Below the pieces are notes generated by a model. That model made no database searches, was not told the origin of the DNA, and saw nothing but the letters and a program-made list of their open reading frames with translations. This document shows positions 4,071-63,789 of a stretch of DNA of 64,000 nt, one piece after another. The stretch is taken from positions 83,020,001 through 83,084,000 of the forward strand of contig NC_087436.1 in the NCBI RefSeq assembly GCF_036321535.1, given 5' to 3'. The position numbers and the translations under genes are program-made. This DNA is from Camelus dromedarius (taxonomy: Eukaryota). The first letter of the stretch is position 1. Every line of letters starts with the position of its first letter.

Positions 4071-4074
4071 CACA

Positions 4075-40500: not shown

Positions 40501-41057
40501 GAAATGGAACAGCTCAATTTTTAATATGCGAAATTTCAAGGGAAGTTTCAGGGGAGGGAACTTTTGGGACCCAGGACAGGCCACTCCAAAATATGCTTCA
40601 ATGGAATTTCGGTTATTTTAAATTAAAGTTACTTGAGAAAAAGCTGGTGAAAAAAAATTTTTTTTAATCGCTCTGAGTCTCTCTTTCCCTATGAGAGTGG
40701 GAAATAAATCCCCCATGTGCAGGTACCCTCCCTACACCAGGAGGGTAGAAAGCATCCTTAACAACAAAGTTAGGGAATTCAAGGCTAAGAAAACTGTATA
40801 AATAGAACTTTACCTTCTTTAGTCTGCTACCCCAAACACAGCTCCTTTGTTTTGTTAAATCTTCACAAATAACTGTTTCTTTGTTTAAAAATGATATATA
40901 AACAGCCTGCTTTGGTTGCTTCAGGGGTCCCATTGCTATGAGACCTCTGTGCATGCAAATTAAATTTTTTCCTGTTAACCTTTCTTGTATCAATTCAATT
41001 ATTAGACCAATCAAAAGAACTCAAGAGGGATAAGGGGAAACTTTCCCTTCCCCAACC
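37567..41057 (+). mobile_element. Non-coding ERV1 provirus remnant (MER34-like): truncated 5' LTR, internal region, PPT, 3' LTR ~40562-41057
   Basis: LTR start repeated ('ccccaaaatatgcctcaatggc...attattttgaattaaagtta' and 'ctccaaaatatgcttcaatgg...ttattttaaattaaagtta'); polypurine tract 'aggggagggaa' precedes the 3' LTR; no ORF. Confidence 0.8.
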
Positions 41058-42457
41058 CTACCAAGTATCAATTATTGCTGCTTGAGCATCAATTAGTCAT
41101 TTCACAACCAATTCAGCCATAGAAACAAACAAAAAAATGTGTTTGCCATCACTGTTACAGGACAGAAATTGGCATTTAAAACCACTCAGGCAGACTCCCT
41201 AATTTCAGTCAGACACGTAAGGACCTTGGAAGCCGCCACTCTTTCCTAGCAACAAATAAAACAGCTGAATACATTGAAAATCAATAGCTTTTCTTAGATC
41301 TGTCAGAGAATTAATGACATGTGGTAAACTACTTCTCCTAAAATTGGACAGATACAGAAATCACAACTTGATGGAGAAGAAACCCACAAACAAAAACCTC
41401 TGTGGGAGCCAGGGCCAGGGTAGGAGAATCTGAACAGGAACTGACGAATTGCCAGAGGCTCAGAGCAGACAAGTTTGTGAATTAATTCCAAAGGGGCTCC
41501 TCTCTTTTGTGAGTTTTACCTCCTGGAATTCTGCCATGTTCTCACAGGACAGATCAGACAAAAATCCCCTTGGGCTTCCTGCAGGAAAAGTAACCATTTT
41601 GAAACACATCAGAACATTTTGTTCTTAAGAAAGCCCTCAAGAGAAACTCTTTCACCAGAGCCTAAATGACAGAAAAAGGAACTACCCAACTCCAGCCCGC
41701 TCCAGGAATCCTGTCTTATCTAAGTAAGGTTTAGGGCACAGGATTGGGGGTGGAGAGAAACTGAGACGCACTTGCAAAGTTCACAGCCCAGAGCACAGGC
41801 TCACTTTTAAGGAATGAGATGTAATCATAAGACTATATAGAATGCTTCCCCTCTCCTCACACCTTACCGCTTCTTCACTAATGGCCTATTTATCAGAGTT
41901 CTTTTTACCTAGGACATAATGTCTGGCTTTCAGCAAAAAATTACGAGGCATTCAAATAGACAAAAATAAAAAAAAACAGTTTGAAGAGACAGAGCAAGAA
42001 TCAGAACCAGCCTCAGATATGGCAGGGATGTTGGAATTATCAGATCATGAATTAAAACAACTATGATTAATATGCTGAGGGCTGTAATGGAAAGGGTAGA
42101 CAATATTCAAGAACAGATGGGCAATGTAAGCAGAGATGGAAATTCTAAGAATCAATAAGACATGCTAGAGAACAAAAACACTAGAATAGAAATAAAGAAA
42201 GTCTTTCATAGGCTTATTAGTAGATTGAACACAACTGAGGAAGAATCTCTGAGCCTGAGGATACGTCAATAGAAACTGAAAGTAAAGAGAAAAGACTGGG
42301 AAAAAAGGGAACAGAATATCAAAGAACTGTGGTACAACTACAAAAGGTGTAACATACACATAATGGGAGGATCAAAAGAGGGAAAGAAACAAAAGCAATA
42401 TTTGAAGCAATAATGACTGAGAACTTCCTCCATATTAAGATAAGACAGCATACTACA

Positions 42458-42834
42458 TTCCTTAGTAAGCTTGGGCTGCTGTAACACACTATTATAGACT
42501 GGATGACTTAAACAATAATTATTTATTTTTCAGAGTTCTGAAGGCAGAGGCTGAGAAGTACAAGATCAAGGTGCCAGCACATTCAGTTCCAGGGAGGACC
42601 TGTGTCTTGGTTTGTAGATGGACATCTTCTTGCTGTATCTTCCCGTGGCAGACAGCAAAGAGAAAGAGAGTAAGTTCTCATGGCTCTTTTTATAAGAACA
42701 CTAATCCCACTCATGAAGGTTGCACCCTCATGAGTTAATTACTTCTCAAAGACCCTACCTCTTAATACCATCACACATGGGTTAGGACTTCAACATCTGA
42801 ATTTGGGGGGGACACAAACATTTGGTCCATAACA
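42458..42834 (-). mobile_element. MLT1A-like MaLR LTR inserted in L1 ORF1
   Basis: 'gggctgctgtaaca...caagatcaaggtgccagca...ttataagaacactaatccca...gggggacacaaacatttggtccataaca'. Confidence 0.9.
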
Positions 42835-44511
42835 TCACAAAACACAGGAAGCTCAGAGAACACCAAGCAGGATAAATGCCAAATAAACTACACCTAGGCA
42901 TATCACATTCAAACTGCAGAAAATCAAAGGTAAAGAACAATTCTTGAAAGAAGTCATAGGAAAAAAAGTATCTTACCTATAGAGGAGCAAAAAGTTACAT
43001 CCCACTGCTCCTCAGAAACTATGCAAGCAAGAAGAAAGTGGAAATATTTAAAATGTTGAGAGGAAAAAACCCACCAACCTATAATTCTGTACCCTCCAAA
43101 GAATTATCCTTCAAAAGTGAAGAAGAAATAAAGACTTTCTCAGATGCACACTAAGGGAATTTGTTGCCAGTATATCAGCCTTGCAAGAAATGTTCAAAGA
43201 AGTTCTTTAGAGAGAAGGAAATTGATATAGGTCAGAAACTTGGATGAATATAAATTAAAAAAAAGAACATTAAAGAAGGAATAAATAAAAGTAAATAAAA
43301 CTTTCATCTTTCTTACTCTTAATTAATCTAACAAAGAACAATTTGTTCAAAATAATAATAACAATAATGTATTCAATTTGGTAATGTGGATATATATGCT
43401 TATGCATATTTATATGTAAGTGACTGAATGACAACAATGATACAAAGGAAGTTGGGGGGTGGAAATCAGGAATATTTTGTTATTATGAGGTACTTACACA
43501 ACCCAAGAAATGATATGGTGTTATTTGAAAGTGAACTTGGGTTACCTGTATATTCAATGTATACTGCAAAGGTATGTTACAAATTTGAGGAAAATCACTA
43601 AAAAAAGTTTTCAAAAAGTTAAAAAATTGATATGCTAAGAAATGAGAGAAAATTGAATCATGTAAATGCTCATTTAAGACCACAAATGGCAGAAGAAGAA
43701 TGGGAGACAAAAACAGGAACAAAGAATAAGGGTAATGAATAGAAAACAATAACAAACATGGTAGATATTAATCAAAATATATTAATAATCACTTTAAACA
43801 TCAATGATATAAATACAACTAAAAGAAATAATCAAAGTGGATCAAAAAACAAGATTCAACTACCTGTTATCGTAAGAACCCTCTTTAACTATAAAGACAC
43901 ATATATATTAAAAATAAAGAAAGAAAGATATACCATTCTAACATTAGTCAAAAGAAAATAGGAGTACCTATGTTAATTTCAGACAGAGTTGACTTCAAAG
44001 CAAGGAAAATTATCACGGATAAAAAGGTGCATCCCATAATGATAAAGGAGTCAATTCTCCAAGAAGATAAAACAATTTTTAACATGTATATACCCAACAA
44101 CAGAGCATCAAAACATGTGAGGCAAAGCTGATAGAACTGCAAGGAGAAATAGATAAATCCACAGTAATAGTTCAAGACTTTAACACCCTTCTGTCAGAAA
44201 TAAACATATCCAGCAGGTAAAAATTAAGTAAAATCATAGCTAAGCTCAACAGCACCATCAATCAACTGGATATAATTGGCATCTATAGACTACTTCCTCC
44301 AGTAACAGCAGATCATACATTCTTCTCAAGCTCACATGGAACATTCACCAAGACAGATCACATTCTAAGTCATAAAACATACTTTAAAAAATTTAAAAGA
44401 ATATAAATCACACAATGTCTCTGCTCAGACCACAATGGATTTAAAAGAAAATCAATAACTGGAAAGACAGCTGGAAAAATCCCCAAATATTTAAAATTTA
44501 AACAACACTCT

Positions 44512-44843
44512 TTTATTTTATCTTATTTATTTTAATTAAAATATAGCTGACATACAATATTATGTTAGTTTCAGGTGTACTACTTAGTGATTTGATATTT
44601 GCATACATTATGAAATGATCACCATGATTTAAGTCTAGTAACCATCTGTCCCCACACAGTTATTACAATATTATCGACCATATTTCTTATGTTGTATATT
44701 ATATCCCTATGGTTTGTTTATTTTATAATTGGAAGTATGTACCTCTTAATCCACTTCACATATTTCTTACCCCTCAGTACCCTCTCTTCTGACAACCATC
44801 CATCTGTTCTCTGTATCTATGAGTCTGTTTTTCTTCTGTTTTC
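44512..44843 (-). mobile_element. Younger L1 3' UTR tip inserted in the old L1
   Basis: Same 3' UTR type as 29990-30290; TSD-like tttaaacaacactc / tttaacaatacac. Confidence 0.8.
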
Positions 44844-45264
44844 TTTTAACAATACACTTAACATATGGGTAAGGGAGAAATCTAAAGAGAAATTAAACAG
44901 ATGAACTAAATGAAAAAGAAAATACAACTTATCAAAATTTGTGTGATGCAGCAAAAGCAGTGCTTAGAGGAGAATTTATAGCAGTAAATGAATATATTAG
45001 CAAGGAATTAAGATCTAAAATCAATCATCTGCCCTTCAACCTTAGGAAACTAGAAAAAGGAAATAAAATTAAATACAAAGTAAGCAGAGGAAAAGAAATA
45101 ATAACATTCGAGGAGAAATAATAAAATTGAAAACAAGAAATCAATAGAGAAAGACAATGAAGGACCAAGCCACATACTGGAAGAAAATATCTACAAAAGA
45201 CATATCGGATACATGACTGTTATCCAAAATATCCAAAGAACTCTTAAAACTCAACACTAAGAGG

Positions 45265-45873
45265 ACAAATAGCCCAATTAAAAATTGGGCCAAAGACCTG
45301 AACAGATACCTTACCAAAGAAGATATACAGATGACAGATAAGCATATGAAAAGATACTCCACATTACATGTCATTATGGAATTGCACATTTAAACAACAA
45401 TGAGATACCACTACACACCTATTAGAAAGCCCAAACTCTAAAACACTGACAATATCAAATGTTGTCCAGGAAAGTTCATTTTTTGCTGGTGGGAATTCAA
45501 GTTGTTTCAGCCGCTTTGGAAGACAGTTTCACAATTTCTTACAAAACTAAACATACGCGTCCCATGAGATCTAGTGATCATGTTCCTCTGTATTTACCCA
45601 GTGAGTTGAAAACTTAAGTCCTCACCGAAACCTGAACACAGATGTTTATAGCAGATGAATATAACTATATATTCATAGTTGCCAAAGCTTGGAAGCAACC
45701 AAGGTGTCTTTCAGTAAGTGAATGGATAAATAAACAATTCCCCCATTCTAGACAATGGAATATTATTCAGTGCTAAAAAGAAATGAGCTATCAAGCCATG
45801 AAAAGACTTGGAGGAACCTTAAATGCATCTTCCTAAGTGCAAGAAGCCAGTCTGGAAAGACTGCATATTGTAT
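45265..45873 (+). repeat. Inverted repeat, left identical core (609 bp)
   Basis: Reverse complement of 50839-51447 with no mismatch found by eye; first mismatches at 45264 and 45874. Confidence 0.93.
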
Positions 45874-46399
45874 GATTCCAACTACATGACATGCAGACAG
45901 TAAGAAGTCAATGGCTGCCAGGTGGAATGGGAAAGGGAGGTATGTGGAGCCAAGGAGATGTTTACAGCAGGGAAAGTCTTCTCTACAATACTGCAGTGCT
46001 GGATACATTTGTCAAAATCCAGAGATCCATAGAATGTATAACACCAAAAATAAACCCTAATGTAAACTGTGGACTTGGGGTGATAATGACGTGCCAATGT
46101 AAGTTCATCGATTATAAGAAATGTTCTACTCTGGAGCACTATGTTGATAGCAGGGGAGGCTGTGCTTATAGAGGAGAGAGGGTATGTGGGAACGCTGTGC
46201 TCTGTTCAATTTTCTGTGAATCTAAAACTGCTCCAAAAAATATAGTCTATTTAAAAGAAAAAAGAAAACATATGAGCATTTAATGGAGATACGTGTACAT
46301 GTAAACAATAACACCTAAACCTGTGTGACAGAAATTATTCACCTAGAATGTCAGGCTTTTTAAAAATCTCAGTTCTACTACATAGAACAAACTACATAG

Positions 46400-46558
46400 T
46401 TTGTCACCTTGGCCAAGTTCCTGTTTCCTCATCTGTCACAAAAGGGATCCCTATCTCCTAGATGCTGGGAGACAAGATGAATTAAACCACGTGAAGTGTT
46501 TAGAAAAGTGTCTGGCAGTTATTAAGTACACACTATATGTTAGCTATTATTAATATTA
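46400..46558 (+). mobile_element. MIR
   Basis: 'gtcaccttggccaagttcctgtttcctcatctgt...aagtgtttagaaaagtgtctggca...gttagctattatt'. Confidence 0.8.
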
Positions 46559-47769
46559 CAAGAGAAAAATGAACACATTTTGTAAAATGTATCATGCCAG
46601 GAGATGGCATGGCTGTCCGTACTGTTCAGTTCATTTTAGGTTATGGATTAGTTGGCCCCATTTGGCAGAGCAAGAGAGCTCCATTTTACTTTATTTGTTC
46701 TGTTGCCTACAAATAAAGGGTGTAGTTGAAAGTGTTTTGAAGGAATAAAGGATTTTGGTTGCTTCTGGTGAAAGGAGATTGGTTATTCTCTCCATCAGAG
46801 AATGATTTATTGCATTGTTTTGGAGGCACTGGCTGTGGGGATTAGGATGCTAAGAGGAGTATTTGATTTCATAATTTTAGGAGTAGTGAGTTCTGCGTGG
46901 AAACAGACTTTAAATCCAGGTCTTAAGCTGCTACAATATTTGTCAGTTAAGTACAAAATATGTTTGCGATCCCATAGAACAGGAAGGCCAGGCTGGCCTG
47001 AACAATGCTACCTAGTTTCTTAAGAGTACTGCCAATTCTTTCTTTTGGCTTTGCTTTCTTAAAGCTGCTTCCTCTTTGGCCAAAAGCTCTTCATCCTTTC
47101 CTGAAGCACGTCTACCAGTAGGGACACTGGTAGGAAATAGCCAAAAAAATCCCTTTAGTTTTATTTTCTTCTATTTCCACTGGCAGAAAACTTGACAGCC
47201 TGTCTTCTTTACTGAAACACAATCACCAAAGCTATTTGTGTCTTGGGCTCTTCTCTACAGAATGTTTGCAAAGTCTTCCAAAGACCCCAGCAGATTGCAA
47301 TATACCAGCTCATCACTGTGCACATTATCCTGCTACATATGGGGTGCTTGACTCTCTCTTGGTTTATTTGGTAAAACTAAGATTCTAACCTTAAAATACA
47401 TAAGCATTAAATCCCTTGGGTATGTGTTTCAATTACATTTTGAGTTGCAAAAATTCTTTTCTCTTGGAAAAGTAGGGGTCTAAATTTTCGTTTAACACTA
47501 CCTAATTTACACACCGATTCTCACTTGATGTAAAGAAGAAAATGAAAACATAAATAACTTCGTGCTAAAAAAGTACTCTCCTCCTTCACTTTCACAAAGG
47601 TGCTCTTAGCTTTCCTTTGGTTGTGGTGACCAGTCCAACCACATATTCTTTTAAAATGTTTAAGAGATGCATGTCTTTCTATAACCTCTGACCTTATGTT
47701 AATTTCAGCCCCTTACTGCTTTATGTCTGGGCTGTCTTCTAACTACTGTATTCTCTACCAACAACGCTC

Positions 47770-48420
47770 ACTTCTTTAATCCAATCTAAACCATCCTACA
47801 CCTTGTTGTGGGATAATCTTTATTCTAGAACCACCAAACTCTTTGATCGTATTACTGCCTATTGAAAAATCATTCTTTCCCCTCTCAAGAGAGTCAAGTC
47901 CAAATCCTGAGCCAGAGAAACACGACCATCACAACCTGGGTGCTAAGAGGTCTGTCCCCACTCTTGTTTTGTAAACAGCTAGGCTGCAGTGCTAGAGGGT
48001 CAACGTGCATCTCACAGTCACTTCTCCTATTTTCTCACTTCCATCCCTTTGTGTGCACTCTTGCTTCTCAGGCCTTTCCCTACTCTTCATTTTCAAATCT
48101 AATACAGTTTTCAAGGCCAGGACTTTTTAAGCCCAGCTTCTCCATGAAACCTTCTCCTCTGTAGCCCACAGTGGCCTTCCACTCGGAGCTCTTAACACTT
48201 ACTCTCCCTTCCATTCACTTGGCAGCTTACCACCTACTACCTCTTACATGCCTTCAAAACCACTGCCTCCTATTGTCATTTAACTTTGGGATGTTTACAT
48301 CTTATTCCCTCATCTAAATCATTAGCTCTTCCATTCATTCATTAGTATTTACTGGCTTTACTAAGTGCTGGGTACTATGATAGCTATGGGGAGAAAGCCC
48401 CTGTTTTCTCCTTATACCAC
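47770..48420. mobile_element. L2 fragments
   Basis: 'aagtccaaatcctgagcc', 'cttctccatgaaaccttctc', 'cattcattcattagtatttactgg...gtgctgggtact'. Confidence 0.55.
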
Positions 48421-49158
48421 AGTTCTAAAAGCGGAAATTTTTTAATGCGTGACAGGTAGGTTTCAGGCATAATGCTCTAGCAGAAGCTCCTGCCACATTC
48501 TTCATCATCCAGTGGGGAAATCTGTCAAGGGCATTATAGAATATCAAAAGGATAATTTTTATTAACTTTTCCTGGATCTTTAACACTACAGAGTTAACAG
48601 TTATCACCTGTTTAGTTGGACTCCCTACCTACTGATGCTTTTACAAAAAACGTATTTTAGTATCACCATTAGAAGCAGATTCTATGAGATGGTGTAATGT
48701 GGTTAATTATCAAGTGATATAAACAGGGGTGGATCCTAGGTTACTTCCTTTTATCTGAAATCTTAGTGATGCGGGACTGTAGTTGATTTGAACAAATACC
48801 CTTCTTTCACTGAGACTAGGAGGACAAGCAATCTGTCACGGGCTGATGAGATATACTAAATTTGACCTTTATTGATCCTCTCAAGGGACTTTTCAGGGGG
48901 TGAAAAGCCTATTTAAAAGTTTACTTGGGTTTTAGAAATTAGTATTTGGTGATCAAAGTTATAAATTCAAGACTCTAGTCTTTTTTAAGTCTATAATTCA
49001 GTTTACCAATGCTATTGCCCTATTTATATGTCTAGTAAATTTTATGATTCAATTCTAAGAGATCTTTCAATAGTGTTTGGTTTAATCTATAAACTTAGTG
49101 AATTTAACACTCCCAAACACTTAAAACTGTATGTAGAAGAAAACTTCAATTTCTTTAG

Positions 49159-49710
49159 TGTGTTGGGAACCCCCAGACTATGCCCATCTTCAGAGATTCA
49201 CTGGAAGAATTTACAGTACTCAATGTATAGGTCTAGTCAGAGCTAAGATTTATTATAGCAACATAGCAAGGATACACAGGTAGATCATAAGGGAAAGACA
49301 AAGGGAGAGTCTAGAGGACTCTATCTGCAAGCTGCCTTATGCTCTCTTCTTCTCACAAGGGGTCACACAGAACACGCTCTTCCCCCAGCAATGAAAACTC
49401 CACATGTGTGCAATATTTTGGCCCAGGGAGACCACTAAAGGCTTAGAGCCCAAGGTTTTTACTGGGAGCTGGGTATGTAGGCATGCTCTGCTGAGCATGT
49501 ACCAAAATTCCAGACTCTCAGAAGGTGAGCAGGCATTCAGCATAAACTGTTTGCACAGTCTAGACAAAGTGAACCACCCTTAACAGTTAACTGTTGAGTG
49601 GGAACACTCTGTGACTCAATCTCCCAGATGCCAACTAAGGGCCAATCTTGAGAGCAGGCCTTTCTAAGGACAGAAGCCTCAGGCCTCCTGTGTTCACTCT
49701 TTTCTGCATA
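49159..49710 (-). mobile_element. MER68/MER77/MER21-group ERVL LTR
   Basis: Reverse complement starts 'tatgcagaaaagagtgaacacaggaggcctgaggcttctgtccttagaaaggcctgct', the recalled start of this group. Confidence 0.8.
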
Positions 49711-50429
49711 CTTAAGTACTCCTATTTTCTAATTTAACAAACTAAGCCTCCCCAATTGCTCAAATAACCCATATGAAGGAAATGATTGAAATTATAAATA
49801 CGGTCAACCCTAATTCTTTAAATGTCCTGTTATTTTTCTACAGACTTAGTAAGATTTCAACTTTAAATCAAAAGCCTAAATCACTTATTTAATTGCACAT
49901 CTGAAACTGGACTGAAAAAATTTCTGTGATTAATCCCAATTCTTCCTAGAATGAAAGATGCTTTAACACTAAGGAAACTATGCCACGCCTAGCACTGTTG
50001 GCAGTTATCTTAGCTGGTGACGAGGTAGCATGACCTAGAACTGGAGACTTCTGCAGAGGCTGATTTCTTGCCCTGACCTTGAATTGTGGTTAACTGGGTA
50101 ACTTCAAAATGAGTTATTGTGATATCTCTGCATTTAGGTTATATATTAGCTAATTCATCTGATTGCTGACTGAAGTCTGCAGTTCACCCTAGGTGAACCC
50201 ACTGATAGGATGCTTTTTGTTTTTGTTTTTCTTTAATTGCAGGAGAGGGACCTTAATGTAATTGTCATTTTGGTCTAAATTTAAAGCTTTTGAACTTAAT
50301 GAAATTCTTCATTCTTTCATATCCGTGCCATCTTTTAGGCTCACACTTTTTTAAGAATATTTATTAGAATAATGGATATGCATTTATAGTTTTACTTTTA
50401 TGGTCGCAGCTTTCAATGTAATTTTTCCC

Positions 50430-53345
50430 CTTGTTTTTTTTAAATAAATTTTTAAAGAGCAATTTTAGGTTCACAGCAAAATTGAGGGGAAGGCAGAGAT
50501 TTTCCATACATCCTCTGCTCACTACCCCAGACAAATTCTTCTCCATTATCAGTACACCCGACCAGAGTGGTGCACTTGTTATAATCAGTGAACTTACATT
50601 AACACATCATGATCACCCCAAGTCCACAGTTTACATTAGGGTTTATTCTTGGTGTTGTACATTCTATGGATCTCTGGATTTTGACAAATGTATTCAGCAC
50701 TGCAGTATCATAGAGAAGACTTTCTCTGCCCTAAACATCTCCTGTGTTCCACATTCCTCCGTTTCCCATTCCACCTGCTACCCATTGACTTCTGTCGGCA
50801 TGGTTTTGCCTTTTCCTCAACATCCTGTAGTTGGAATTATACAATATGCAGTCTTTCCAGACTGGCTTCTTGCACTTAGGAAGATGCATTTAAGGTTCCT
50901 CCAAGTCTTTTCATGGCTTGATAGCTCATTTCTTTTTAGCACTGAATAATATTCCATTGTCTAGAATGGGGGAATTGTTTATTTATCCATTCACTTACTG
51001 AAAGACACCTTGGTTGCTTCCAAGCTTTGGCAACTATGAATATATAGTTATATTCATCTGCTATAAACATCTGTGTTCAGGTTTCGGTGAGGACTTAAGT
51101 TTTCAACTCACTGGGTAAATACAGAGGAACATGATCACTAGATCTCATGGGACGCGTATGTTTAGTTTTGTAAGAAATTGTGAAACTGTCTTCCAAAGCG
51201 GCTGAAACAACTTGAATTCCCACCAGCAAAAAATGAACTTTCCTGGACAACATTTGATATTGTCAGTGTTTTAGAGTTTGGGCTTTCTAATAGGTGTGTA
51301 GTGGTATCTCATTGTTGTTTAAATGTGCAATTCCATAATGACATGTAATGTGGAGTATCTTTTCATATGCTTATCTGTCATCTGTATATCTTCTTTGGTA
51401 AGGTATCTGTTCAGGTCTTTGGCCCAATTTTTAATTGGGCTATTTGTTCTCTTAGTGTTGAGTTTTCAGAGTTCTTTGCATCCTCTGGGTAACAGTCACG
51501 TATCAGATACGTCTTTTGTAGATATTTTCTCCCAGTATGTGGCTTGTCTCCTTATTCCGTTGACATTGTCTTTCACAGACTAGAAGTTTTCAATTTTAAT
51601 CAAGTCTAGCTTATAATGATTTCTTTCATGGATCCTCCCTTTGGTTTTGTAGCTAAAAAGTTATCGCCATGTCCAAGATCACCTAGACTTCCTCCTACAT
51701 TATCTTGGAGTTTTACAGTTTTGCACTTTCCATTTAGGTCTATGACCCACTTCGAATTAATTTTGTGAAGGGAGTTCAGATTTGTGCTTAGATTCTCTCT
51801 CTCTCTTTTTTTTTTTTTTTTTTTTTGCATGTAGCTGTCCATTTGTTCCAGCACCATTTGTTGAAAACTATCTTTATTCCACTGTATTGCCTTTGCTCCC
51901 ATGTCAAAGATTAGTGGACTATATTTATGTGGGTCTTTTTCCAAGCTCTCTATTCTGTTCCATGTTCTATTTGCCTGTTCTTTCACCAATCTCATACTGT
52001 CTTGAGTACTGTAGCTTTTAGGAAGTCTTGAAGTCAGGTTATCTCAGTCCTCCAACTCTGTACCTCTCCTTCAATAATATGTTGGCTCTACAAGGTCTCT
52101 TGCCTCTCCATATAAACTTTAGATTAGTTGGTCAATATCCATAAAATAACTTCCTGGATTTTTTTTTAATAAGGATTGCATTGAATCTATAGATCAAGCT
52201 GGGAAGAACTGACATCTTGACAACATTGAATCTTCTTATTCATGAACATGAAGTATCTCTGCATTTATTTACTCTTAGATTTCTTTCATCAGAGTCTTAT
52301 AGCTTTCATCATATAGATCTTGTTCATATTTTGTTAGATTTATACCTAAGTATTTCACTTTCGGGGATGTAATGTAAATGGTATTGTGTTTTTAATTTCA
52401 AGTTCCACTTGTTCATTGCTAGTATACAGGAAGAGGTTGACTTTTGAATATTACCCTTGTACCCTGCAAACCTGATATATCATTTAATTAGTTCCAGGAG
52501 TTTTTGTTGTTGTTATTGCTGTTGTTGCTTGATTTCCTACATAGACAATCATGTCATCTGCAACCAAAAACAGTTTTATTTCTTTTTTCCCAAGTTGCAT
52601 AATTTTTATATCTTTTTCTTGCCTTACTGCATTGCTAAAAGTTTCAGTGTGATATTGAAAAGTAGTGTTGAGATAGAGTATCCTTGCCTTGTTCCTAATC
52701 TTAATGGGAAAGCGTCCAGTCTCTCACTATTAAGTATGATATTGGCCGTAGGCTTTTTGTAGATGATCTTTATCAAGAGGAGGGAGTTCTCCTCTGTTCC
52801 TGGTTTGATGAGAGTTTTTATCATGAATGGGTATTGTATTTTATCAAATGCTTTCTAGCAACTATTGATACAATCGTGTGATTTTTCTTCTTTATTCTGT
52901 GGATGTGATGGATTACAATAATTTATTTCAAATGTTGAACCAGCGTTGCATACCTGAAATATATGCCATGTTGTGTACAATTTTTGGTGTATAATCTCAC
53001 ATAGTAAATAATTCTTTTCATACACTGTTGGATTCAATTTGCTAATTTTTTTTTGAGGATTTTGTATCTATGTCACAAGAGATATTGGTCTGTAGTTTGT
53101 TCCCTTTCCTTGTAATGTCTTTATCCAGTTTTGGTGTTAGGATAATGCTCACAAAGTGAGTTAGGAAATATTCCCTTGACTTCTACCTTCTGAAAGACAC
53201 TGTAGAGAATTGGTAGAAATTTTCCTTAAATGTTTGGTGGAATTTCCCAGTGAACTCATCTGGGTTTGGTGTTTCTGTCTGGGAAGGTTATTAATTATTG
53301 ATTCAAACACTTTAAGATATAGGTCTATTCAAATTGTCTATTAGA
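50430..53345 (-). mobile_element. Ancient L1MC1/2-like element: ORF2 RT and C-terminal region plus 3' UTR
   Basis: Antisense L1MC 3' end 'gagcaattttaggttcacagcaaaattgag'; RT remnant [26 protein letters not shown] (52624-52824). Confidence 0.9.
50839..51447 (-). repeat. Inverted repeat, right identical core (609 bp)
   Basis: Reverse complement of 45265-45873; the ORF track independently shows shared peptides (MCNSIMTCNVEYLFICLSV..., GIIQYAVFPDWLLALRK...) at both arms on opposite strands. Confidence 0.93.
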
Positions 53346-54221
53346 TTTTTTTTTAAAGAAGACACTTTTATTTCTTTGAGTAGTATGAATATGTAGTCTT
53401 GCTATCTACTTGCTATCAGGAGGAAATCTTAATATCAATTATACTAAAATTAAAATTGTTATCTAGATATCTAAAAATCTAATTAATTAATTTGTGCCTA
53501 GTGACTGAATAATACAGATGTAGTGACTAATTATGGTTAATATGTAGACATTTTAATTTTAAATGTATTCATATGTATTCATTTTGCTGTTCCTTCAGTT
53601 TTAAGTTCACTAGGAAGCTACAATGTTTTAAACTATAAGTTAAAATAGAGCTGTTTTAACTCTCTGATTTTAAAGAGCTATTTCCATGGTCCTAGCAGTT
53701 AACACAGCCGGCTTCGGAAAAAAAATTGCCAGGTTAAAAATCTCCTAGGATGTGCTCTTTGGCTTTTCTGGTAGGTCTTGAATATAGCCACAGGCACACT
53801 AACTAATCTCAAGCTGATGCAACTAGTTACAAAACCATGACAGCTGGCTTAGAATACATCCGAAACATGTTGATGTTTTTCAGAAATACTCTTAAGAAAC
53901 ACAGACAGACACAAACAAGATTCTGATTCAGTAGATAAGAAGCCAGGAATCTAAACTCCAAACAAACATTACAAGGTGGTCCTGACTCTGATGCAAGTAG
54001 ACTGCACCACACTCAGAAACAATGCGTTTGAGGTTAGACAAGGTAGATTTGATCAATTTGTTTTCCCCCTCTTTTAATATGCTAAAATGGACCCAAAACT
54101 TATCCATAAGGAGATACCTGGCTTTGCCTTGTAAAGCCTGGTTACCTTAACATCCATAAAAGGACTTCAACATTAAATGGTGAAGATCTATGGCCTACAT
54201 AGAGAGAACTTAAATTTCCTC

Positions 54222-54796
54222 CTTTTTTTAAATTTAATTTTTTTTTAGTGAAGTACAGTCAGTTGTAATGTGTCACTTTCTGGTGTACAGCACAATGTCC
54301 CAGTCATGCATATACATACATATATTCATTTTCATTACAGGTTATTACAAGATATTGAACATAGTTCCCTTTGCTATACAGTAGAAAAATTTTTTTTCAG
54401 ATCTGCTTTTATATATAGTGGCTAACATTTGTAAATCTCAAACTCCCAAATTTATCCCTTCCCACTCCCTTTCCCTGGAAACCATAAGATTATTTACTAT
54501 GTCTGCAAGTCTGTTTCTGTTTTGTAGATGAGTTCATCACGTCCTTTTTTTTCTTTCTTTTTTTTTTTTTTTTTTAAGATTCCACCTATGAGTGATATAG
54601 TATGGTATTTTTCTTTCTCTTTCTGGCTTACTTCATTTAGAATGATGATCTCTAGGTCCATCCACTTTGCTGCAAATGGCATTATTTTATTCTTTTTTAT
54701 GGCTGAGTAGTATTCCATTGTATAAATATACCACAACTTCTTTATTCAGTCATCTGTCAATGGACATTTAGGTTGCTTCCATGTCTTGTCTATTGT
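54222..54796 (-). mobile_element. Young 5'-truncated L1 (ORF2 end and complete 3' UTR)
   Basis: Perfect 12-bp TSD TTAAATTTCCTC (54210-54221, 54797-54808); poly-T head; ORF2 C-terminal peptide MWYIYTMEYYSAIKKNKIMPFAAKWMDLE. Confidence 0.95.
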
Positions 54797-55889
54797 TTAA
54801 ATTTCCTCTTAACTGGAATGAGTGAAGAGGAAAAAAATCTGTCGATCAGCAAAAAGTAGAAGTGGGAAGGAGAAATAATGCAGCAGGTCATGCTTTAATT
54901 TGTACAGAAACGCCAACTGTTATGGTGCTGTAAATGAGTCAGATTCATTTAAGCTTAGTTACCGTGCCTATGGCCAGATCAAAAGACCCAAAAAATTTCC
55001 CAAAGCATTCACCAGTGTGAAATGAAAATGCATCTGTTGGGACCAGCAATTCTTAAAGTCGAGCCTTTCCAAAGGCATCCTCTAGAGTAGAAACCATTAA
55101 TGAATGATTGTATTTGATGACTGATGCCAGGTGTTTTGCAGTGATTTTACATAAATTCTAACTATCTTAAGAGGGAAGAAATGCCCCCAAAACATTTTAT
55201 TTCATTTCCATTATAACTCACTGTTAACTGGGTTGTCTTCTTGATATTCTATGGAAATTATACTCCAGATTAAAGACTGTCTTAATTTAACAAGGTGAAG
55301 CCACTGTTCTGAAAAGGAGTACAACTGGTTCTTACAGTCCTTGCCCTAGTCCTCATTTATTCTTTGTGCCCATATGCCCACATACCACTGAACAGTAATC
55401 CATTTCAGAATTCTGAGAAGCCAACCTCACCACTTACGTTTCTTGGGCCATGTACCTTTGGCTATTGGTGTAACTCTGAAATTTCTCTAAGAAGCATCCC
55501 CTTTGGGGTACAAATGAAGATACAAGAATGGTGATTATTTTAACTTCACTGATTGGTGCCTCTACCTCCATGACACAGAACCTCCAGCTTCCAGATGTTT
55601 TCTGGGATCACATTCTGACACAAATCTACAATCATTCTACTGTGGCCCCTTCAACCTCTGATGTCCAGGAAGCACTTGATGATAGTGCCACCTTACTGCA
55701 GCTGACTTACACAAAAACATTGACATTCCCTGGTAGAGGTGCTGGTCTTCCACAGCTCCATAATGTGAACGCAATTCAAAGCTGTCTGAAGGAGGCTCCA
55801 TGCTCTTTAGTTTCTCCTGTGCCAGAATGTTCTCTGTGGCCCAGAGAGTGGAGAGAGAGATCACACCTTGCTTGTTACCCCAACCGAAC

Positions 55890-56025
55890 TGTTTTTATTT
55901 ACAACCCTTCTGACAGCAAATATGTGGGAGTTTTTCCTCACAACAATCAATTCTCCACCTGACTCAGGTCCCAACACCAAATGAGGGTCCTACAACTCAG
56001 TTCAATTCTGACACTAACTACTCAG
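55890..56025 (-). mobile_element. MER21-like LTR fragment
   Basis: 'cttctgacagcaaatatgtgggagtttttcctcacaacaatcaattctcc...gtcctacaactcagttcaattctgacactaacta'. Confidence 0.55.
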
Positions 56026-56609
56026 AAGATATGCAGAAAACAACTGTGGGGATTTAGAAAACAGTTTAGACTACTTTCAAATGACCAATATACTTTGGGG
56101 AATAGAGCATTTCTCTCACTAGAAGATACAGTCAAACTAGGATTGCACTGAAGGGAAAAATAAGACAGGCAATAAATATAATTAGGGAAGTGGGGTGGGG
56201 GGGAAAGTCTTTCTTGATCTTCTCGTCAAGATAAAGGCAAGTTGAGTCATTTTTCTCTTTCTAATCTGTTTGTGTGTCCCAAGTATTTGTAGTGATTTTG
56301 GGGAATGAGAGCCTTCAGTGTAGAGCTGGCTCATAATTAAACTGGCTGCGCTCATATTGTGCAGGGCAGGGTGTGAGCCATGTCCCAGTTTGCATACGAA
56401 AGTCCCAGTTTACATGTATTGCTCCAAATAACTATTCATTGTGCCCCCTCTGGCTCTCAAAAGTAAACATGGTTGCCCTAGCTTTAGATGAAAAATAAAA
56501 ATAATTCCTTGTTAGGCTTCAGTGCCCCTTGTAATTAAAGCATGAAAAGTCATTACAGAAACAAAAGAGTTTTCCTTGAGGTTACAACAGGAAATTTCAC
56601 ATGCTGGTA

Positions 56610-57487
56610 TTGCTTATTCTGAGAGGAGAAACCACTGCAAAGTGTGAATACCCCAAAGTGGATCATCTACTAACTTCCCCCCAAATCTCAACTGCTATCT
56701 TTGGACTCCAGGACCCTCTTCCCCTATTTATCAGTACCTGGTACACTGTCACTCTCTCTAACACTACTCCTGTCTTATGTCTTGGTTAATTCAGTATACA
56801 CATAGGTGATTTTTCCAGCATGCTGGCCTCTGCCTACCTTGAACTGCTCTCCTCCAATGTTTGTGTTCTCCACCCTGCCTCAGCTATGCACTCCCAGGTC
56901 ACGCCACAGACACTGTCATAAGCAATTTCATTTTATCTGCCTTGCTCTTTGACCACCATATCCCATGTCCCACCTGGCTTCTTCTAGTAACCTAACTCCA
57001 ACAAAACTCTGACCCCCACAAGGACCTGCAATCATTAACTTTACTAATATATCACTGTGTCTCATTCCATACTGGTCTCTTTAATCTTTATAAGCGCCTG
57101 AAATTCCATGATCATTCACTACGATAATATCCTCGCAAAGGCCCTGAACTCTATTGTTCCTCTTTTGCATTTTCGCTTGCTTGGCAAAACCAGAATCTCT
57201 AGTTAAATTCAAATCTCTCCCACTCTGTGCCTATATCCCTGCAGCTAAATGTGGGTGGAGAAAAACACCTAAGAATAATGATTTATCTGGCTTTAAATTT
57301 ATGATCATGAATCTTAACGCTGGGACTCTGAATGGTACCCAGCAACTCAAACTATATTTCCCTAGCCCATTCACCTTTCCATTTTCCTGTTTCAACATGT
57401 CGTGATTTCTTTTCTCTTCTGTACCCTCTCCCATAGTCATTCTCAGCTGATAACCCTATTTCCTACCTTACTAAGAAAACTAAAGCA
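56610..57487 (-). mobile_element. L2 ORF region, continuing at 63866-64000 beyond the L1
   Basis: 'cttggcaaaaccagaatc...gcagctaaatgtgggtggagaaaaacac...tttaaatttatgatca', and 'tcctaccttactaagaaaac...aatcaaaagagacttc' across the L1. Confidence 0.75.
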
Positions 57488-60400
57488 GGAGTGACATGAG
57501 AAACATGGCAGAGGGAAAAACTACCTTTGTCTCTCCCCTTTCAATATACAATCAGTAAAATATCCACAACTCAAAGGTGCCTCTGCCCAACACAACAGGA
57601 CACCAGAGAATTCCACGTGTCTGCACATCTAAGGGTGAATGGACGGAACACACAGAGGAAGCAGAACTGAGGCAACAGCAGTCTGTGTCTGCAATCCCTG
57701 TCATCTGACAGTGGCAGCATAGCCCATAGCTTCAGAGGACCTGGTAGTAGGAGAGGAAGCGGCACACGTGACTCTGGCCTCCCAGTCAAACCAGCGCCCA
57801 CAGCCACAGGTAGCTAGGCAGCAGCGGGAGTGGGGCCTGGGACCCTGTTCCTCCAGCTGCTGACATGCCCAAGACCCCACCCTTACCCCCCATCTGCAGT
57901 AGCAGAGCCCCCAAACCTTACAATACCAGACATGGTAGAGGTGCCTGCATGACCCCAGCTCCCCCTGCACTGTTTCCCTCCCCACACTACAAAGCCTGTG
58001 TCTCAGAGGATCCTGGATGCAAGGAAAGAGCCCACCATCCCAGTGACAACAGCAACTCTGGCAGAAGCAAGGCAGCAACCACCCTAGAGAAACAAGAAGT
58101 GGCAGTGAAGGCACAGAGGCACACCTCATGTAGATGGGGTGGAGGTTAGAAAGTGTAGAGCCTCAAATATAACCAGAGGCAGCTCAAGTGAGAGTAACCA
58201 CAAACTTGTGTGATACCACCACCTACTGGAAGACAAAAGAAAGGAACCTAACAGCTAACCTGTCGTTTAATTTCAAATGCAGCAGCAGAGGGATAACTCA
58301 TCAAGCAACATGAAGAACTGCAGTAACACTGTACCACAAAAAGAAAGTGACAATTCTCCAGAAATCAAACTTAAAATTACAGAATATTGTGATCTAACTG
58401 ACAGAGAATTCAAAATCACTATCATGAAGAAACTCAGAGAGATACAAGAAAACTCAGAAAGGCAGTTTAATGAGCTTGAAAACAAAACTAATGAACAGGA
58501 GTACTTTACCAAAGTAACGGACATCCTTAAAAAGAACCAAACAAATTCTGAAGAACACCATAAACGAGAGGAAGAATGTATTGGAAAGCACTAGAAATAG
58601 AGCAGACCACGTGGAAGAGATTTAGTGAGCACAAAGATAGAAATCTGGAAACAACACAAGCAGAAGAGGGAAGAGAAATAAGATGTAAAAATATAAGGAA
58701 GTCCTATGAGAGAGATTTGACTCTTTTAGGAAAGGCAGCATTAGGATGAAGGAGGGAAAAGGGAGCAGAGAGATTAAAGAAAGTCCACAAAGTCCAAAAG
58801 CTAAGAGAACACCTAATTAGCCCAACTGAAAAGGCCTTCTCCAAGACACATTATATGAAAACTGCCAAAAGGCAATGACAAAAAAAGAATTTAAAAGGTA
58901 ACCAGGGAAAAAAGGACAGTAAATTACAAAGGAACCCCCAATTAGGCTATCAGCAGATTCCTCAGCCTAAACCCTACGGGCCAGGAGGGAGTGCAGTGAC
59001 ATTCTCAGACACTGAAAGATAAAAACTGTCAGTCAAGAATAGTTCATCCAGCAGTTATCCTTCAGATATGAAGGAGAAATAATTTCCCAGACAAACAAAA
59101 GCTGAGGGAGTTCATCACCACTGGACCTGCCTTACAAGAAATGAAAGGAGCTTTTCTACCAGAAACAAAATGGTCAAAATACACAAAACTTTAAGCAAGG
59201 TGATAAATAGACAGAACCAGAAAACTGTAATTCTTTATCAGAATAGGTTTTTAAACACTTTATTACAGTATAAAAATTAAAGATCTAAAAAAAGAAAGCA
59301 GAAAAATAACTACAGTTATCTCAGTATGGTAACAAACACAATACAAAAAAGATAATTTGAGACAACAAAAACACAAAAGTAAGTGAAGACAAAATGTTAT
59401 CAGCAAAAAAAAGGAATCTAACAGGAATCTCTTTATCAATGAGATGTTTTATACAAATCCCAGGGTAACCACAAAACATAAACACAGAGCAGAGACACAA
59501 AACATAAAAAAAGGAAACTGAGAAAAATACCATTAAAAAACCACCAAACAAAAGTAGCATGCAGAAACACAAGGAAAAAGAAACAATGGAGATACAGAGT
59601 GGCCAGATAACAAAAGATTAAATGACAATACTAAGTTCCCATCTATCAATAATCACCCTAAATGTAAATGGACTGAATTCACCAATCAAAAGACACAGAA
59701 TGCTGGATGGATTAAAAAACAAGCCTCAAGTATATGCTGCCTCCAGGAGACACACCTCAGGTCTAAAGACAGGCTAAAGGTGAAGGGATGGAAGATGATA
59801 CTCCAAGCAAAAAGCAGCCCAAAGAAAACAGGCATAACCACACTCATCTCAAAAAAACTAGACTTCAAGCCAAAAAAGTTAACAAGAGACAATATAAAGG
59901 AGACAATTAATCAAGAAGTCATAATAGTGATCATTATATACGTACCTAACATAGGAGCACAAAAATATATTAAATAATTATTAACAGACCTAAAGGGAGA
60001 AACCGACAACAACATGATTAAAAGTAGGGGACTTTAACACCCCACTTACATCAGTGGACAGGTCATCCAAACAGCAAGTCAACAAGGAAACAGCAGCCTT
60101 AAATGAAAATTTAGGCCAGATGTATTTGACAGACTTGTACAGAATATTCCATCAAAATGTAGTGGAATACACATTCATCCCAAGTGCACATGGACTGTTC
60201 TCAAAAACAGCACACACTGGGACACAAAATAAGTCTCAATAAATTCAAGAATATTAAAATTATATCAAGTATCTTTTCTGATCCCAGTGGAATGAAACTA
60301 GAAATCAACTACAAGAAGAAAGCTGGAAAAATCACAAATATTTGGTGACTGAGCAACATACTACTGAACAATTACTGGCTCAACAAAGGAATCAAAGGAG

Positions 60401-61384
60401 AAATAAAAAATTACCTAAAGACAAATAAAAATGAAAATATGACATACCAAAATCTATGGGATATGGCAAAAGTGGTGCTAAGAGGGAAGTTTACAGCAGG
60501 ACAGATCTACCTCAAGAAACAAGAAAAATTTCAAACAAACCATCTAAACTCACAGGTAAAGAAACTAGAAAATGAAGAACAAATGAAGTCCAAAGTAGCA
60601 GAAAAAAGGAAATAATAAAGCTCAGAGCAGACATAAATGAACTAGATACTAAAAAGACAATTAAAAAATCAATGAAACTAAGAGCTGGTTCTTTGAAAAG
60701 ATAAACAAAATTGACAAACCATTATCTGGACTCACTAAGAAAAAAAGAGAGAAGGTTCTGATAAATAAAATCAAAAGTAAAAAAGGGAGAAATGACAACA
60801 ACACCAGAGAAATACAAAGAGTTATAAGAGAATATTATGAATAGCCACACACCAACATATTGAACACCCTAGAAGCGGAAATGGAACAAATTCTTAGAAT
60901 CATATTACTTTCCCAGACTGAATCAGGAAGAAATAGAAAATCTGAGCAGACCGATCACTAGTACAGAGATTGAAACAATGATCAAAAACCTCCCCAAAAT
61001 GGAAGTCCAGGACCAGGTGGCTTCATGGGTGAATTTTACTAAACATTCAAAGAGATTTAATACCTATCTTTCTCAAACTATTCCTAAAAATTGAAGAGAA
61101 GGGAACACTGTTTATGAGGCCATCACCTCGATACCAAAACCAAAGACAACAGAAAAAAGAAAATTAAAAGCTAGTATCTCTGATAAACATAGATGCAACA
61201 ATCTTCAACAAAACATCAGTAAACCAAATTCAACACTATATCAAAAGGATCATACACCATGAGCAAGTGGGATTTATTCCAGGGACTCAAAGATGGTTCA
61301 GCATTTGCAAGTAAATCAGTGTGATATACCACATTAACAAAATGAAGGGTAAAAACCAAATGACTATCTCAAAGATGCTGAAAA

Positions 61385-61414
61385 AGCTTTTGACAGCTTT
61401 TGACAGCTTTTGAC
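61385..61414 (+). repeat. Perfect triplication of AGCTTTTGAC inside L1 RT
   Basis: Three exact 10-bp units seen directly. Confidence 0.9.
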
Positions 61415-63259
61415 AAGATTCAGTATCTATTTATGATTTTAAAAACTCTCAATAAAATTGATATAGAAGGGACATACCTCAACATAATAAAGACCATATG
61501 TGACAAACCCATAGCTAACATCATATTCAATGGTGAAAACTTGAAAGTTATCCTTCTAATACCAGAAACAAGATATGAATGCCCACTCCCACTACTTTTA
61601 CTCAACATAGTATTGGAAGCCACAGCCAGAGCAATTAGGCAAGAAAAAGAAATAAAAGGCATTCAGTTTGGAAAGGAAGAAGTATAACTGTGACTATTTG
61701 CAGATAACATAATTATTTTATATATATAAGACCCTAAAAACACAAAAAACTATTAGAAATAATAAATGCAATAAAGTTACAGGATACAAAATCAATATAC
61801 AGAAATCTGTTGCACTTCTACACACTAACAAGCTAACAGAAAGAGAAATTAAGAAAACAATCCCATTTACAATTGCAACAAAAAGAATAAAATACTTTGG
61901 AATAAACTTAACCAAGGAGGTAAAAGACCTATACACTGAAAACTCTAAGACACTTTTGAAAGAAATTGAAGAAGACTCAAATAAATGGAAAGATATTCTG
62001 TGATCATTAATTGGAAGGATTAACACAGTCAAAATATCCTTATTACCTAAAGCAAACTACAGAGTCAATGCAATCCCTATCAAAATCCAAAGGACATTTT
62101 TCACAGAAATAGAATTTAAAAATTATAAAATGTATATGGAACCACAAAAAAAACCCTAAACAGCCAAAGCAATCCTGAGAAAAAAGAACAAAGCTAGATG
62201 TATCACACTCCCTGAGCTCAAACTATACTACAAAGCCATAGTAATCAAAACAGCATGATATTGGGAAAAAAACAGATACACATATCAAAAGAACAGAATT
62301 AGGAGCCCAGAAATAAACACATATATGGACAATTAATTTATGACAAACGATTAAAGAAAATACAATGAAGAAAAGATAATCTCTTCAATAAACGGTGTTC
62401 TGAAAACTGGACAGCCACATGCAAAAAAATGAAACTAGACCACTATCTCACACCATACATAAAAATTAACTCAAAATGGATTGAAGACTTGAATGTAAGA
62501 CCTGAAACCATAAAACGTCTAGAAGAAAGCACAGACAGTATGCTCTTTGACATTAGTCTTAGCAATATTTTTCTAGATTTATCTCCTCAGGCAAGGGAAA
62601 CAAAAGCAAAAATAAACAAATGGGATTATACGGTAGTTTTATAAAAAAAGCTTCCACAGAGCAAAGGAAACTTTTAATAAAATGAAAAGATAACCTACAA
62701 ATGGGAGAAGATATTTACAAATGATATATATCCTAAAGGATTAATATCAAAATTATATTAAGAATTCATATAATTCAACAACAACAAAACTTGATTAAAA
62801 ATGGGCAAAGGAGCTGAACAGACATTTTTCCAAAGAAGACATACACATGGCCAACAGGCAAATGAAAAGATGTTTAAAGTCACTAATTATTAGGGAAATG
62901 CAAATCAAACACAATGAGCTATCACCTCACACCTATCAAAATGGCTATTACTAAAAAGACAACAAATAACAAGTTTTAGTAAGGATATGGAGAAAAGGGA
63001 ACCCTTATACACCGTAGGTGGGAATGTAAACTGGTGCAGTCACTATGGAATACAATATGGAGATTCCTCAAAAAATTAAGAATAGTACTACGATAGGATC
63101 CAGCTATCCCATTTCTGTGTATTTATGCAAAGAATATGAAAACAGTAACCTGAAAAGATATCTGCACCCCCAGTCATAGCAGCATTATTTACAATAGCCA
63201 AGATATGGAAACAACTAAAGTGCCCGTTAACAGACAAACAGATAAAGAAGATACAGTGT

Positions 63260-63260
<1 letters not shown>

Positions 63261-63316
<56 letters not shown>
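63261..63316 (+). repeat. (TATC)14 microsatellite
   Basis: Counted directly. Confidence 0.97.
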
Positions 63317-63685
63317 CATCAATCAATATGCAATGGAATACTACTGGGCCATAAAAAAGATGGATCTTGCCATCTGCAACAACATGTATGTACCTAGAGA
63401 GTCTTATGCTCAGTAAAATAAGTCAGATGGAGAAAGACAAACACCATATGATTTCCCTCACATGTGGAAGATAAAAAAACTAATAAACAAAAACAAGATC
63501 AATGAACAAACAAACCAAAACAAACCCATAGATACAGAGAACAGAGCAGTGGTTACCAGAGGGGAAAGGGTGGGAGTGGAGGGTCAAGTGGGTAAACGGG
63601 ATGAACTGTATGGTGATGGATAGAAACTGGATTTTTGGTGGTGAGCACATTGCAGTGTATACAGAAGAAGAAATATGATATTGTA

Positions 63686-63789
63686 GGGGGAAGGTAATAG
63701 CTCGGTGGTAGAGAGCATGCTTAGCATGCATGAGGTCCTGGGTTCAATCCCCAGTATCTCCATTAATAAAATTTAAAAAAAAAAGACAG
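63686..63789 (+). mobile_element. tRNA-derived SINE, camelid Vic-1-like
   Basis: A-box TAGCTCGGTGG, B-box GGTTCAATCC, A-rich tail; 17-bp TSD with 2 mismatches (63669-63685, 63790-63806) in the L1 3' UTR. Confidence 0.88.

What the first reader, a model, noticed from the sequence alone, without database searches (positions are those of the whole stretch)
45165..51546. Ancient L1 pair turned into a perfect 609-bp inverted repeat: ongoing gene conversion and a candidate invertible ~5-kb segment
Seen: 45265-45873 and 50839-51447 are exact reverse complements by eye, 4965 bp apart. Identity drops outside the core, with scattered mismatches at 45165-45264, a left-only deletion near 45890, a second high-identity patch at ~46005-46085, and clearly diverged 3' tips. 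Both arms share lesions relative to the L1 consensus as I recall it: a hairpin insertion ATGAATATA-ACTA-TATATTCAT (45655-45676) and a deletion at 'tgttgtccaggaaagttc'. Known: L1MC-type elements predate the eutherian radiation, so independent copies should be heavily diverged. Homogenised inverted repeats mediate recurrent inversions (e.g. FLNA-EMD on the mammalian X). Inference: layered conversion tracts of different ages, and the spacer may flip and be polymorphic, ~26 kb upstream of the CpG-island promoter.
Basis: partly seen in the sequence, partly recalled or inferred. Interest (0 to 1): 0.85.

Follow-up and report, generated by a model that had tools for sequence, protein, structure and literature searches.

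The report
Gene-converted inverted pair of ancient L1s
Two long-dead, oppositely oriented L1 retrotransposon copies 5 kb apart in this mammalian genome share an exactly identical 609-base core inside 89% and 72% identical flanks, most likely because one copy was overwritten from the other on at least two occasions, a known process that could, but is not shown to, flip the DNA between them.

Summary
45265-45873 and 50839-51447 are exact reverse complements, 4,965 bp apart. They sit inside two tail-to-tail L1 3' ends with stepped identity: 89% outer flank, 100% core, 89% inner flank, 72% tips. The core is a decayed L1 (stops in all frames, two indels absent from other L1 copies in the window), so it was copied from one old copy and is not two young insertions. 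Best reading: episodic non-allelic gene conversion, one round about 30-60 My ago and one under about 2 My ago (rough clock). Steady 'ongoing' conversion is not favoured: my steady-rate simulations rarely gave this pattern, though rare-event settings did little better. The second patch is borderline. Inversion, polymorphism and conservation in other species are untested, because no reads, genome or orthologue could be obtained. An assembly artefact is not excluded (about 12%). Conversion and inversion between nearby inverted transposon copies are well described. What is less usual is that these copies are of an old mammal-wide type. Verdict: new member of a known kind, modest interest.

The parts
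45265..45873 (+). Left identical core, 609 bp: end of L1 ORF2 and start of the 3' UTR, decayed
   Evidence: 0 mismatches to the right core; stops in all three forward frames; 57-67% identical to four other L1 copies in the window over 45380-45800
50839..51447 (-). Right identical core, exact reverse complement of the left core
45149..45264 (+). Left outer flank (89% stratum); begins at the junction where the left L1 jumps about 2 kb of ORF2, at an 11-nt match to the right copy
   Evidence: 11 substitutions in 99 over 45166-45264, plus gaps of 10 and 1 nt; junction shown
51448..51574 (-). Right outer flank (89% stratum)
45874..46118 (+). Left inner flank (89% stratum), lacking 20 nt at 45890; holds the borderline high-identity patch 46003-46084
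   Evidence: 26 substitutions in 241; patch test
50578..50838 (-). Right inner flank (89% stratum)
46119..46264 (+). Left L1 3' tip with A-rich tail, 72% to the right tip; taken as the unconverted baseline of two independent insertions (inferred)
   Evidence: 38 substitutions in 137, p=1e-5 against the flanks; tail shown
50430..50577 (-). Right L1 3' tip with A-rich tail
46265..50429 (.). Spacer, 4,165 bp, single-copy within the window; the part that a crossover between the cores would invert (with the inner flanks and tips, 4,965 bp)
   Evidence: no other match in the window; no Rfam family in 41000-58000; longest stop-to-stop frame 105 aa, frames not searched further
45655..45676 (+). 9-bp-stem, 4-nt-loop hairpin containing a 12-nt insertion; mirrored at 51036-51057
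   Evidence: insertion against 3 of 3 other L1 copies; folds as DNA, z -3.8 for a 66-nt window chosen around it
41200..45148 (+). 5' part of the left L1 (ORF1 and start of ORF2), interrupted by a younger L1 3' piece at about 44510-44850; 5' boundary approximate, by eye
   Evidence: matches to the window's own L1 at 57480-63830: 43104-43192, 44317-44492, 44876-45161; 44520-44774 is 86% to 29979-30232
51575..53342 (-). Rest of the right L1 (ORF2), 5'-truncated, with no counterpart in the left copy
   Evidence: 65% to 60932-62429 over 51820-53342; no continuation found in 53345-57480

Best explanation
Two decayed L1 3' ends face each other tail to tail across 4.2 kb and share an exact 609-bp core inside 89% flanks and 72% tips, most likely because two independent ancient insertions were later homogenised by at least two episodes of non-allelic gene conversion. 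Shown: the geometry, the three identity levels and the decayed state of the core. Inferred mechanism: a break in one copy is repaired using the inverted neighbour on the same chromosome as template. An older tract of about 960 bp (45149 to about 46110) reset divergence roughly 30-60 My ago, and a recent tract of about 610 bp reset the core less than about 2 My ago, after camels and llamas split. If such a repair resolved as a crossover, the 4,965 bp between the cores would invert; whether that has happened is untested. No function is implied: it is most likely a neutral by-product of repair.
For: Four-segment fit with equal divergence on both sides of the core (11/99 and 26/241) and a distinct, older tip (38/137). 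The core has stops in all frames and two indels absent from other L1 copies, so identity cannot come from two young insertions. Each arm continues into its own longer L1 context and has its own tail. Clock at 1.4e-9 per site per year (7e-9 per 5-year generation, PMC7331169): core at most 1.75 My, flanks 42 My (29-58), tips about 120 My; 609 clean bases after 16.3 My have probability 8e-13 (split date from PMC12337305). Literature passages: conversion between transposon copies is raised within 10 kb (PMC6598467); most tract estimates are 50 to several hundred bp (PMC3924818); tracts are rarely over 1 kb (PMC3961182).
Against: No reads, orthologue or second haplotype were seen, so conversion is inferred from one assembled sequence. 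A 609-bp tract started in an 89%-identical pair is an unlikely event, since recombination needs about 200 bp of identity in yeast (PMC3924818). In my uniform-conversion simulations the observed pattern arose in at most 3 of 3,000 runs in any of 63 settings, rare-event settings included, so it is rare per locus and explained only as something picked out of a genome-wide scan. The tips are only 137 aligned bases, and the clock rate is a borrowed assumption.
Confidence: 0.6

Rival explanations
1. Continuous concerted evolution with recurrent flipping: the core has been kept identical by frequent conversion and crossover for tens of millions of years, and the spacer is polymorphic in orientation today.
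For: Human analogues of this size exist. L1-flanked inversions have a median of 5.6 kb and 21 of 22 pairs are over 90% identical (10.1101/2021.12.20.472354). Recombination-mediated human inversions have repeats from 654 bp and most share SNPs between orientations (10.1101/501981). HsInv0209's likely breakpoint is a 782-bp, 99.9% patch in 94% repeats (PMC3961182). A steadily maintained core avoids the need for a new tract in diverged DNA, and the 20-nt gap 16 bp from the inner edge could act as a barrier (inference).
Against: Identity-dependent steady conversion gave a 550-700-bp clean run with diverged flanks on both sides in 1 of 2,880 runs (toy model without indel barriers). The core edges are abrupt and both flanks have the same divergence. 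Recurrent human inversions are enriched for longer repeats, and 609 bp is at the bottom of the known range. No orientation data.
Confidence: 0.15
2. Assembly artefact: the real arms are about 89% identical throughout, and gap filling or polishing copied one arm's sequence over the other.
For: Abrupt edges, exactly zero differences, and rarity under both simulated biological models. The assembly method is unknown, and no reads could be checked (one search listed none).
Against: No N in 64 kb. Reads from 89%-identical arms are normally told apart (general knowledge). Earlier unchecked notes describe resolved 54-kb tandem units and large duplications on the same piece, which hints at a long-read assembly. 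The 89% layer needs a biological copying event anyway.
Confidence: 0.12
3. The 89% layer is an old inverted duplication: about 960 bp of the right L1 was pasted by template switching into the left L1, replacing about 2 kb of ORF2, and one later conversion made the core.
For: The 89% layer starts exactly at the left L1's internal junction, at an 11-nt match followed by a 10-nt gap.
Against: The inner end runs in register into the left copy's own diverged 3' tip, as in conversion of an existing homologue. Homology must start at the junction under any model, because the left copy lacks the sequence before it.
Confidence: 0.1

Closest known systems
Human inversions flanked by inverted L1 pairs (22 cases in 10.1101/2021.12.20.472354; HsInv0341, L1PA3, and HsInv0347, THE1C, in PMC3961182; L1-mediated human-chimpanzee inversions in PMC2603318)
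   Same: Inverted transposon copies a few kb apart with over 90% identity; here 5 kb between the cores against a median inversion of 5.6 kb.
   Different: Those are shown inversions, and PMC2603318 ties them mostly to young L1PA copies that are similar because they are young. Here the copies are old (72% at the tips), the identity is secondary and covers only 609 bp, and no inversion is shown.
Non-allelic gene conversion between transposon copies (review PMC6598467; tract lengths PMC3924818)
   Same: A run of identity far beyond the age of the elements, between copies less than 10 kb apart, with a tract of several hundred bp.
   Different: The passages seen concern mainly Alu, LTR and yeast elements. 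Here there are two nested tracts of very different age in one old L1 pair, inferred from a single sequence without the cross-species test.
FLNA-EMD inverted repeat and primate X palindromes (PMC8327919; Caceres 2007 seen only as cited)
   Same: Inverted arms that are more alike than their age predicts, around a spacer that could flip.
   Different: Those arms are 8-140 kb (11.3 kb for FLNA-EMD), X-linked and around protein-coding genes, with arm identity shown to be higher within than between species. Here the arms are about 1.1 kb, no gene was recognised, earlier unchecked notes place the window on an autosome-like piece, and the species test is missing.
HsInv0209 (KRTAP5-10/11 inverted duplications, PMC3961182)
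   Same: A near-perfect patch of similar size (782 bp, 99.9%) inside less similar inverted repeats (94%).
   Different: There the repeats are 7-kb gene-bearing duplications and the inversion is validated.

Membership tests
Non-allelic gene conversion between paralogous repeats | Run of identity much longer than the surrounding divergence allows | tested here: met
   609 of 609 against 37 of 340 mismatches in the flanks, p=3e-31
Non-allelic gene conversion between paralogous repeats | Homology older than the tract and continuing in register on both sides | tested here: met
   89% flanks and 72% tips on the same alignment
Non-allelic gene conversion between paralogous repeats | Paralogues closer within a species than orthologues between species | not testable with these tools
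   No genome held, no runs listed, no match in metagenome contigs, no look-alike windows
Non-allelic gene conversion between paralogous repeats | Identity present in raw reads, not only in the assembly | not tested
   The one run search, limited to PacBio libraries, listed none, so no reads were laid
Repeat-mediated (NAHR) polymorphic or recurrent inversion | Inverted repeats of at least 200 bp and over 90% identity at both ends | tested here: met
   609 bp at 100%; criteria
Repeat-mediated (NAHR) polymorphic or recurrent inversion | Both orientations of the spacer observed among haplotypes or species | not testable with these tools
   No second haplotype or species; the target-site-duplication test of present orientation was inconclusive
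Repeat-mediated (NAHR) polymorphic or recurrent inversion | Recurrence (SNPs shared between orientations) | not testable with these tools
   Needs population haplotypes
L1 (LINE-1) fossil | Collinear similarity to L1 ORF2 and an A-rich 3' tail | tested here: met
   65-71% to the window's own long L1-like element over ORF2; tails. Naming that element L1 is recalled; Pfam found nothing in 4 of 4 short core frames
L1MC subfamily | Best match of the 3' end to an L1MC consensus | not testable with these tools
   No repeat library; the label is recalled. The 72% tip identity fits an old subfamily; L1MC is called Eutheria-wide in PMC9252281
FLNA-EMD-type or X-palindrome-type conserved inverted repeat | Arms of 8 kb or more | tested here: not met
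   Arms about 1.1 kb against 8-140 kb
FLNA-EMD-type or X-palindrome-type conserved inverted repeat | Protein-coding genes in arms or spacer | tested here: inconclusive
   No long frame and no Rfam match; small exons are not excluded

The most novel reading that the evidence does not exclude
A self-renewing flip-flop made from two mammal-wide L1 fossils: about 1-kb arms on an autosome that have re-homogenised each other for 40 My or more, independently in camels and llamas and perhaps in other mammals, keeping a 5-kb segment invertible and polymorphic, a miniature gene-free counterpart of FLNA-EMD.
Probability: 0.15. Interest if true: 0.6.

Novelty: new member of a known kind. Interest (0 to 1): 0.32.

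Why it matters
If real, it is a clean example of old repeats being reset to full identity long after they should have become too different to recombine. Such pairs are latent inversion sites that scans based on repeat age would miss, and they distort repeat dating. The nested layers give a direct test, with existing camelid assemblies, of episodic against continuous conversion. The process is known and no effect on a gene is shown, so the value is as a case study.

Tried and rejected
Reads: one run search with 46300-54150, limited to PacBio libraries, listed none; this is no evidence either way, and no reads were laid. No whole genome is held. A 33-nt core pattern had 0 exact matches in metagenome contigs. 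Earlier findings: nothing near, by core sequence or among relatives. Two young insertions: rejected, the core is decayed. One recent duplication: rejected, three identity levels and separate tails. Target-site duplications to tell which tail belongs to the left L1: best 10 of 12 and 13 of 19 for the left tail, reached by 8-17% of random windows over the three lengths tried; right tail 16-36%; inconclusive. GC-biased conversion: core GC 36.5% against 34-42% in the flanks and 31-34% in the unpaired L1 parts, CpG o/e 0.2, flank differences 17 against 13 weak/strong; no clear signal. Which arm is the donor: outer flank against two outgroups 63 vs 59 and 62 vs 61 matches of 89, not informative. Simulations did not separate episodic from steady conversion; all settings gave the pattern in under 1% of runs. 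Gene identity: frames at the CpG island and at 53345-56100 gave no Pfam hit above a cut-off in 9 of 9 frames tried and no PDB hit for one. Rfam: none in 41000-58000. Literature searches for this locus or for camelid inversions and for homogenised old L1 pairs showed no description of it in the listings; as the locus is unnamed this is weak. Caceres 2007 was not held.
Full report
Observation. A self-comparison of the window gives one outstanding pair, 45166-46264 against 51546-50430, 89.7% over 1,125 columns. Within it, 45265-45873 and 50839-51447 are exact reverse complements, 609 bp with 4,965 bp between them. Outside this pair and simple repeats the longest exact repeat in 64 kb is 31 bp. 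A change-point fit prefers four segments: outer flank 89% (11 substitutions in 99), core 100%, inner flank 89% (26 in 241, with a 20-nt gap in the left arm and a 4-nt gap in the right) and tips 72% (38 in 137). The two flanks are alike (p=1.0) and differ from the tips (p=1e-5), and the clean core has probability 3e-31 at flank divergence.

Anatomy. Measured against the long L1-like element at 57480-63830, the left copy (+) has a 5' part ending at the position equal to 60676 and then jumps to about 62660, a loss of about 2 kb of ORF2, at an 11-nt match to the right copy. The right copy (-) runs from 53342 (equal to 60932) to its tail at 50430, and no continuation was found beyond it. The two 3' ends face inward across a 4,165-bp spacer that is single-copy in the window, with no Rfam match and no frame over 105 aa. 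The core has stops in all three frames, is 57-67% identical to four other L1 copies in the window, lacks 15-17 nt present in 4 of 4 of them, and carries a 12-nt hairpin-forming insertion absent from 3 of 3 that reach it. The identical sequence is therefore a copy of one already decayed element. The names L1 and L1MC are recalled, not tested against a library; Pfam found nothing in 4 of 4 short core frames.

Origin of the window. Earlier unchecked notes on the same piece call it camelid or dromedary and place PPP3CA, RAP1GDS1, GUCY1A1 and the casein cluster 13-78 Mb before it, with DMD on another piece. That suggests an autosome. I did not verify this. The gene of the CpG island at about 19100-19650 and its direction were not identified, so the 'upstream of a promoter' link is only a distance of about 26 kb.

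Timing. With 1.4e-9 per site per year (7e-9 per 5-year generation, from a methods passage of PMC7331169, which elsewhere writes the same figure per year), the core was last equalised under 1.75 My ago (95% bound), the flanks about 42 My ago (29-58) and the tips about 120 My ago. With 2.2e-9, a bracket of my own, the figures are 1.1, 27 and 79 My. The camel-llama split is about 16.3 My (PMC12337305), and a clean core after that long has probability 8e-13, so the last copying is younger than the split.

Mechanism. Shown: geometry, three identity levels, decayed core. Inferred: two independent old insertions, then at least two rounds of non-allelic gene conversion by break repair off the inverted neighbour, about 960 bp long ago and about 610 bp recently. 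A crossover outcome would invert the 4,965 bp between the cores; this is untested. I simulated two toy models. With conversion tracts placed uniformly, the observed pattern came up in at most 3 of 3,000 runs in each of 63 settings. With conversion that needs local identity, it came up in 1 of 2,880 runs over 24 settings. So steady conversion does not readily leave 11% flanks on both sides, but rare events seldom give a recent tract either. The pattern is rare per locus under both, the models ignore indel barriers, and they do not decide the matter. That rarity also keeps an assembly artefact alive (about 12%), tempered by the absence of N and by hints of a long-read assembly in earlier notes.

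What could not be tested. No genome is held, the one run search listed none under a PacBio filter, a core pattern had no match in metagenome contigs, and no look-alike window exists in the scan index. Reality in reads, orientation, polymorphism and cross-species concerted evolution are all open. A search for target-site duplications was inconclusive, and no clear GC bias was seen.

Comparison with what is known. Inverted L1 pairs flank 22 human balanced inversions (median 5.6 kb; 21 of 22 pairs over 90% identical) (10.1101/2021.12.20.472354, passages). Recombination-mediated human inversions have repeats from 654 bp up and are mostly recurrent (10.1101/501981, passages; PMC3961182, passages and section 6). 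Human-chimpanzee retrotransposon inversions involve mostly young L1PA copies, old L1M copies less (PMC2603318, passages). Conversion between transposon copies is raised within 10 kb (PMC6598467, passages), with tracts of tens to hundreds of bp (PMC3924818, passages). FLNA-EMD and X palindromes have arms of 8 kb and more with genes (PMC8327919, passages; Caceres 2007 not held). L1MC is described as Eutheria-wide (PMC9252281, passages); PMC1914374 (passages) and section 11 of PMC12337305 gave no usable number. I opened no supplements; inversion tables there may list old-L1 cases like this one. Listings showed no description of this locus, which is weak evidence as it is unnamed. Earlier notes of this scan report similar homogenised repeats in this and another genome; these are unchecked and suggest that the pattern is not rare.

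Verdict. Real in the assembly, most likely episodic gene conversion between two ancient L1 copies (0.6). Rivals: continuous conversion with flipping (0.15), artefact (0.12), old inverted duplication plus one conversion (0.1). New member of a known kind; interest 0.32, rising to about 0.6 if long-lived recurrent flipping were shown.

Noticed in passing
window 45149-45161 and 53342: The left L1's 5' part ends at the position equal to 60676 of the window's long L1 and the right L1 begins at 60932, only 256 nt further on. They could be two halves of one full-length L1 split by an ancient 8-kb inversion, or this is coincidence; the target-site test was inconclusive.
   Followed up: partly
window 53345-55900: About 1.9 kb of non-L1 sequence, split by a younger L1 piece at about 54210-54800, with a poly(A) signal and A-run on the minus strand at about 53350-53375; looks like an old retrocopy or dead transposon. 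The Atlas gave a weak piggyBac-transposase lead (PF13843 in 19-26% of members, recognition below threshold); no Pfam hit above cut-off or PDB hit.
   Followed up: partly
window 45655-45676: The hairpin insertion looks like a local template-switch (quasi-palindrome) mutation that arose before the last copying.
   Followed up: partly
window 19100-19650: CpG island with a splice-donor-like site on the minus strand near 19330 and no ATG in the long minus-strand frames: possibly a non-coding first exon of a gene running leftward; not identified.
   Followed up: partly
window 800-13100 and 22700-23350: Dense cluster of LTR-like repeats, several related at 70-88% in both orientations; none shows a long exact run.
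   Followed up: no
window 57480-63830: Near full-length decayed L1-like element with an internal TATC array and a short SINE-like insert at about 63690-63780 that resembles a camelid SINE (recalled).
   Followed up: no
window 24932-25416: Short inverted pair, about 72-82% over 70-150 bp with a 215-bp gap: a second, old and unhomogenised inverted repeat in the window.
   Followed up: no
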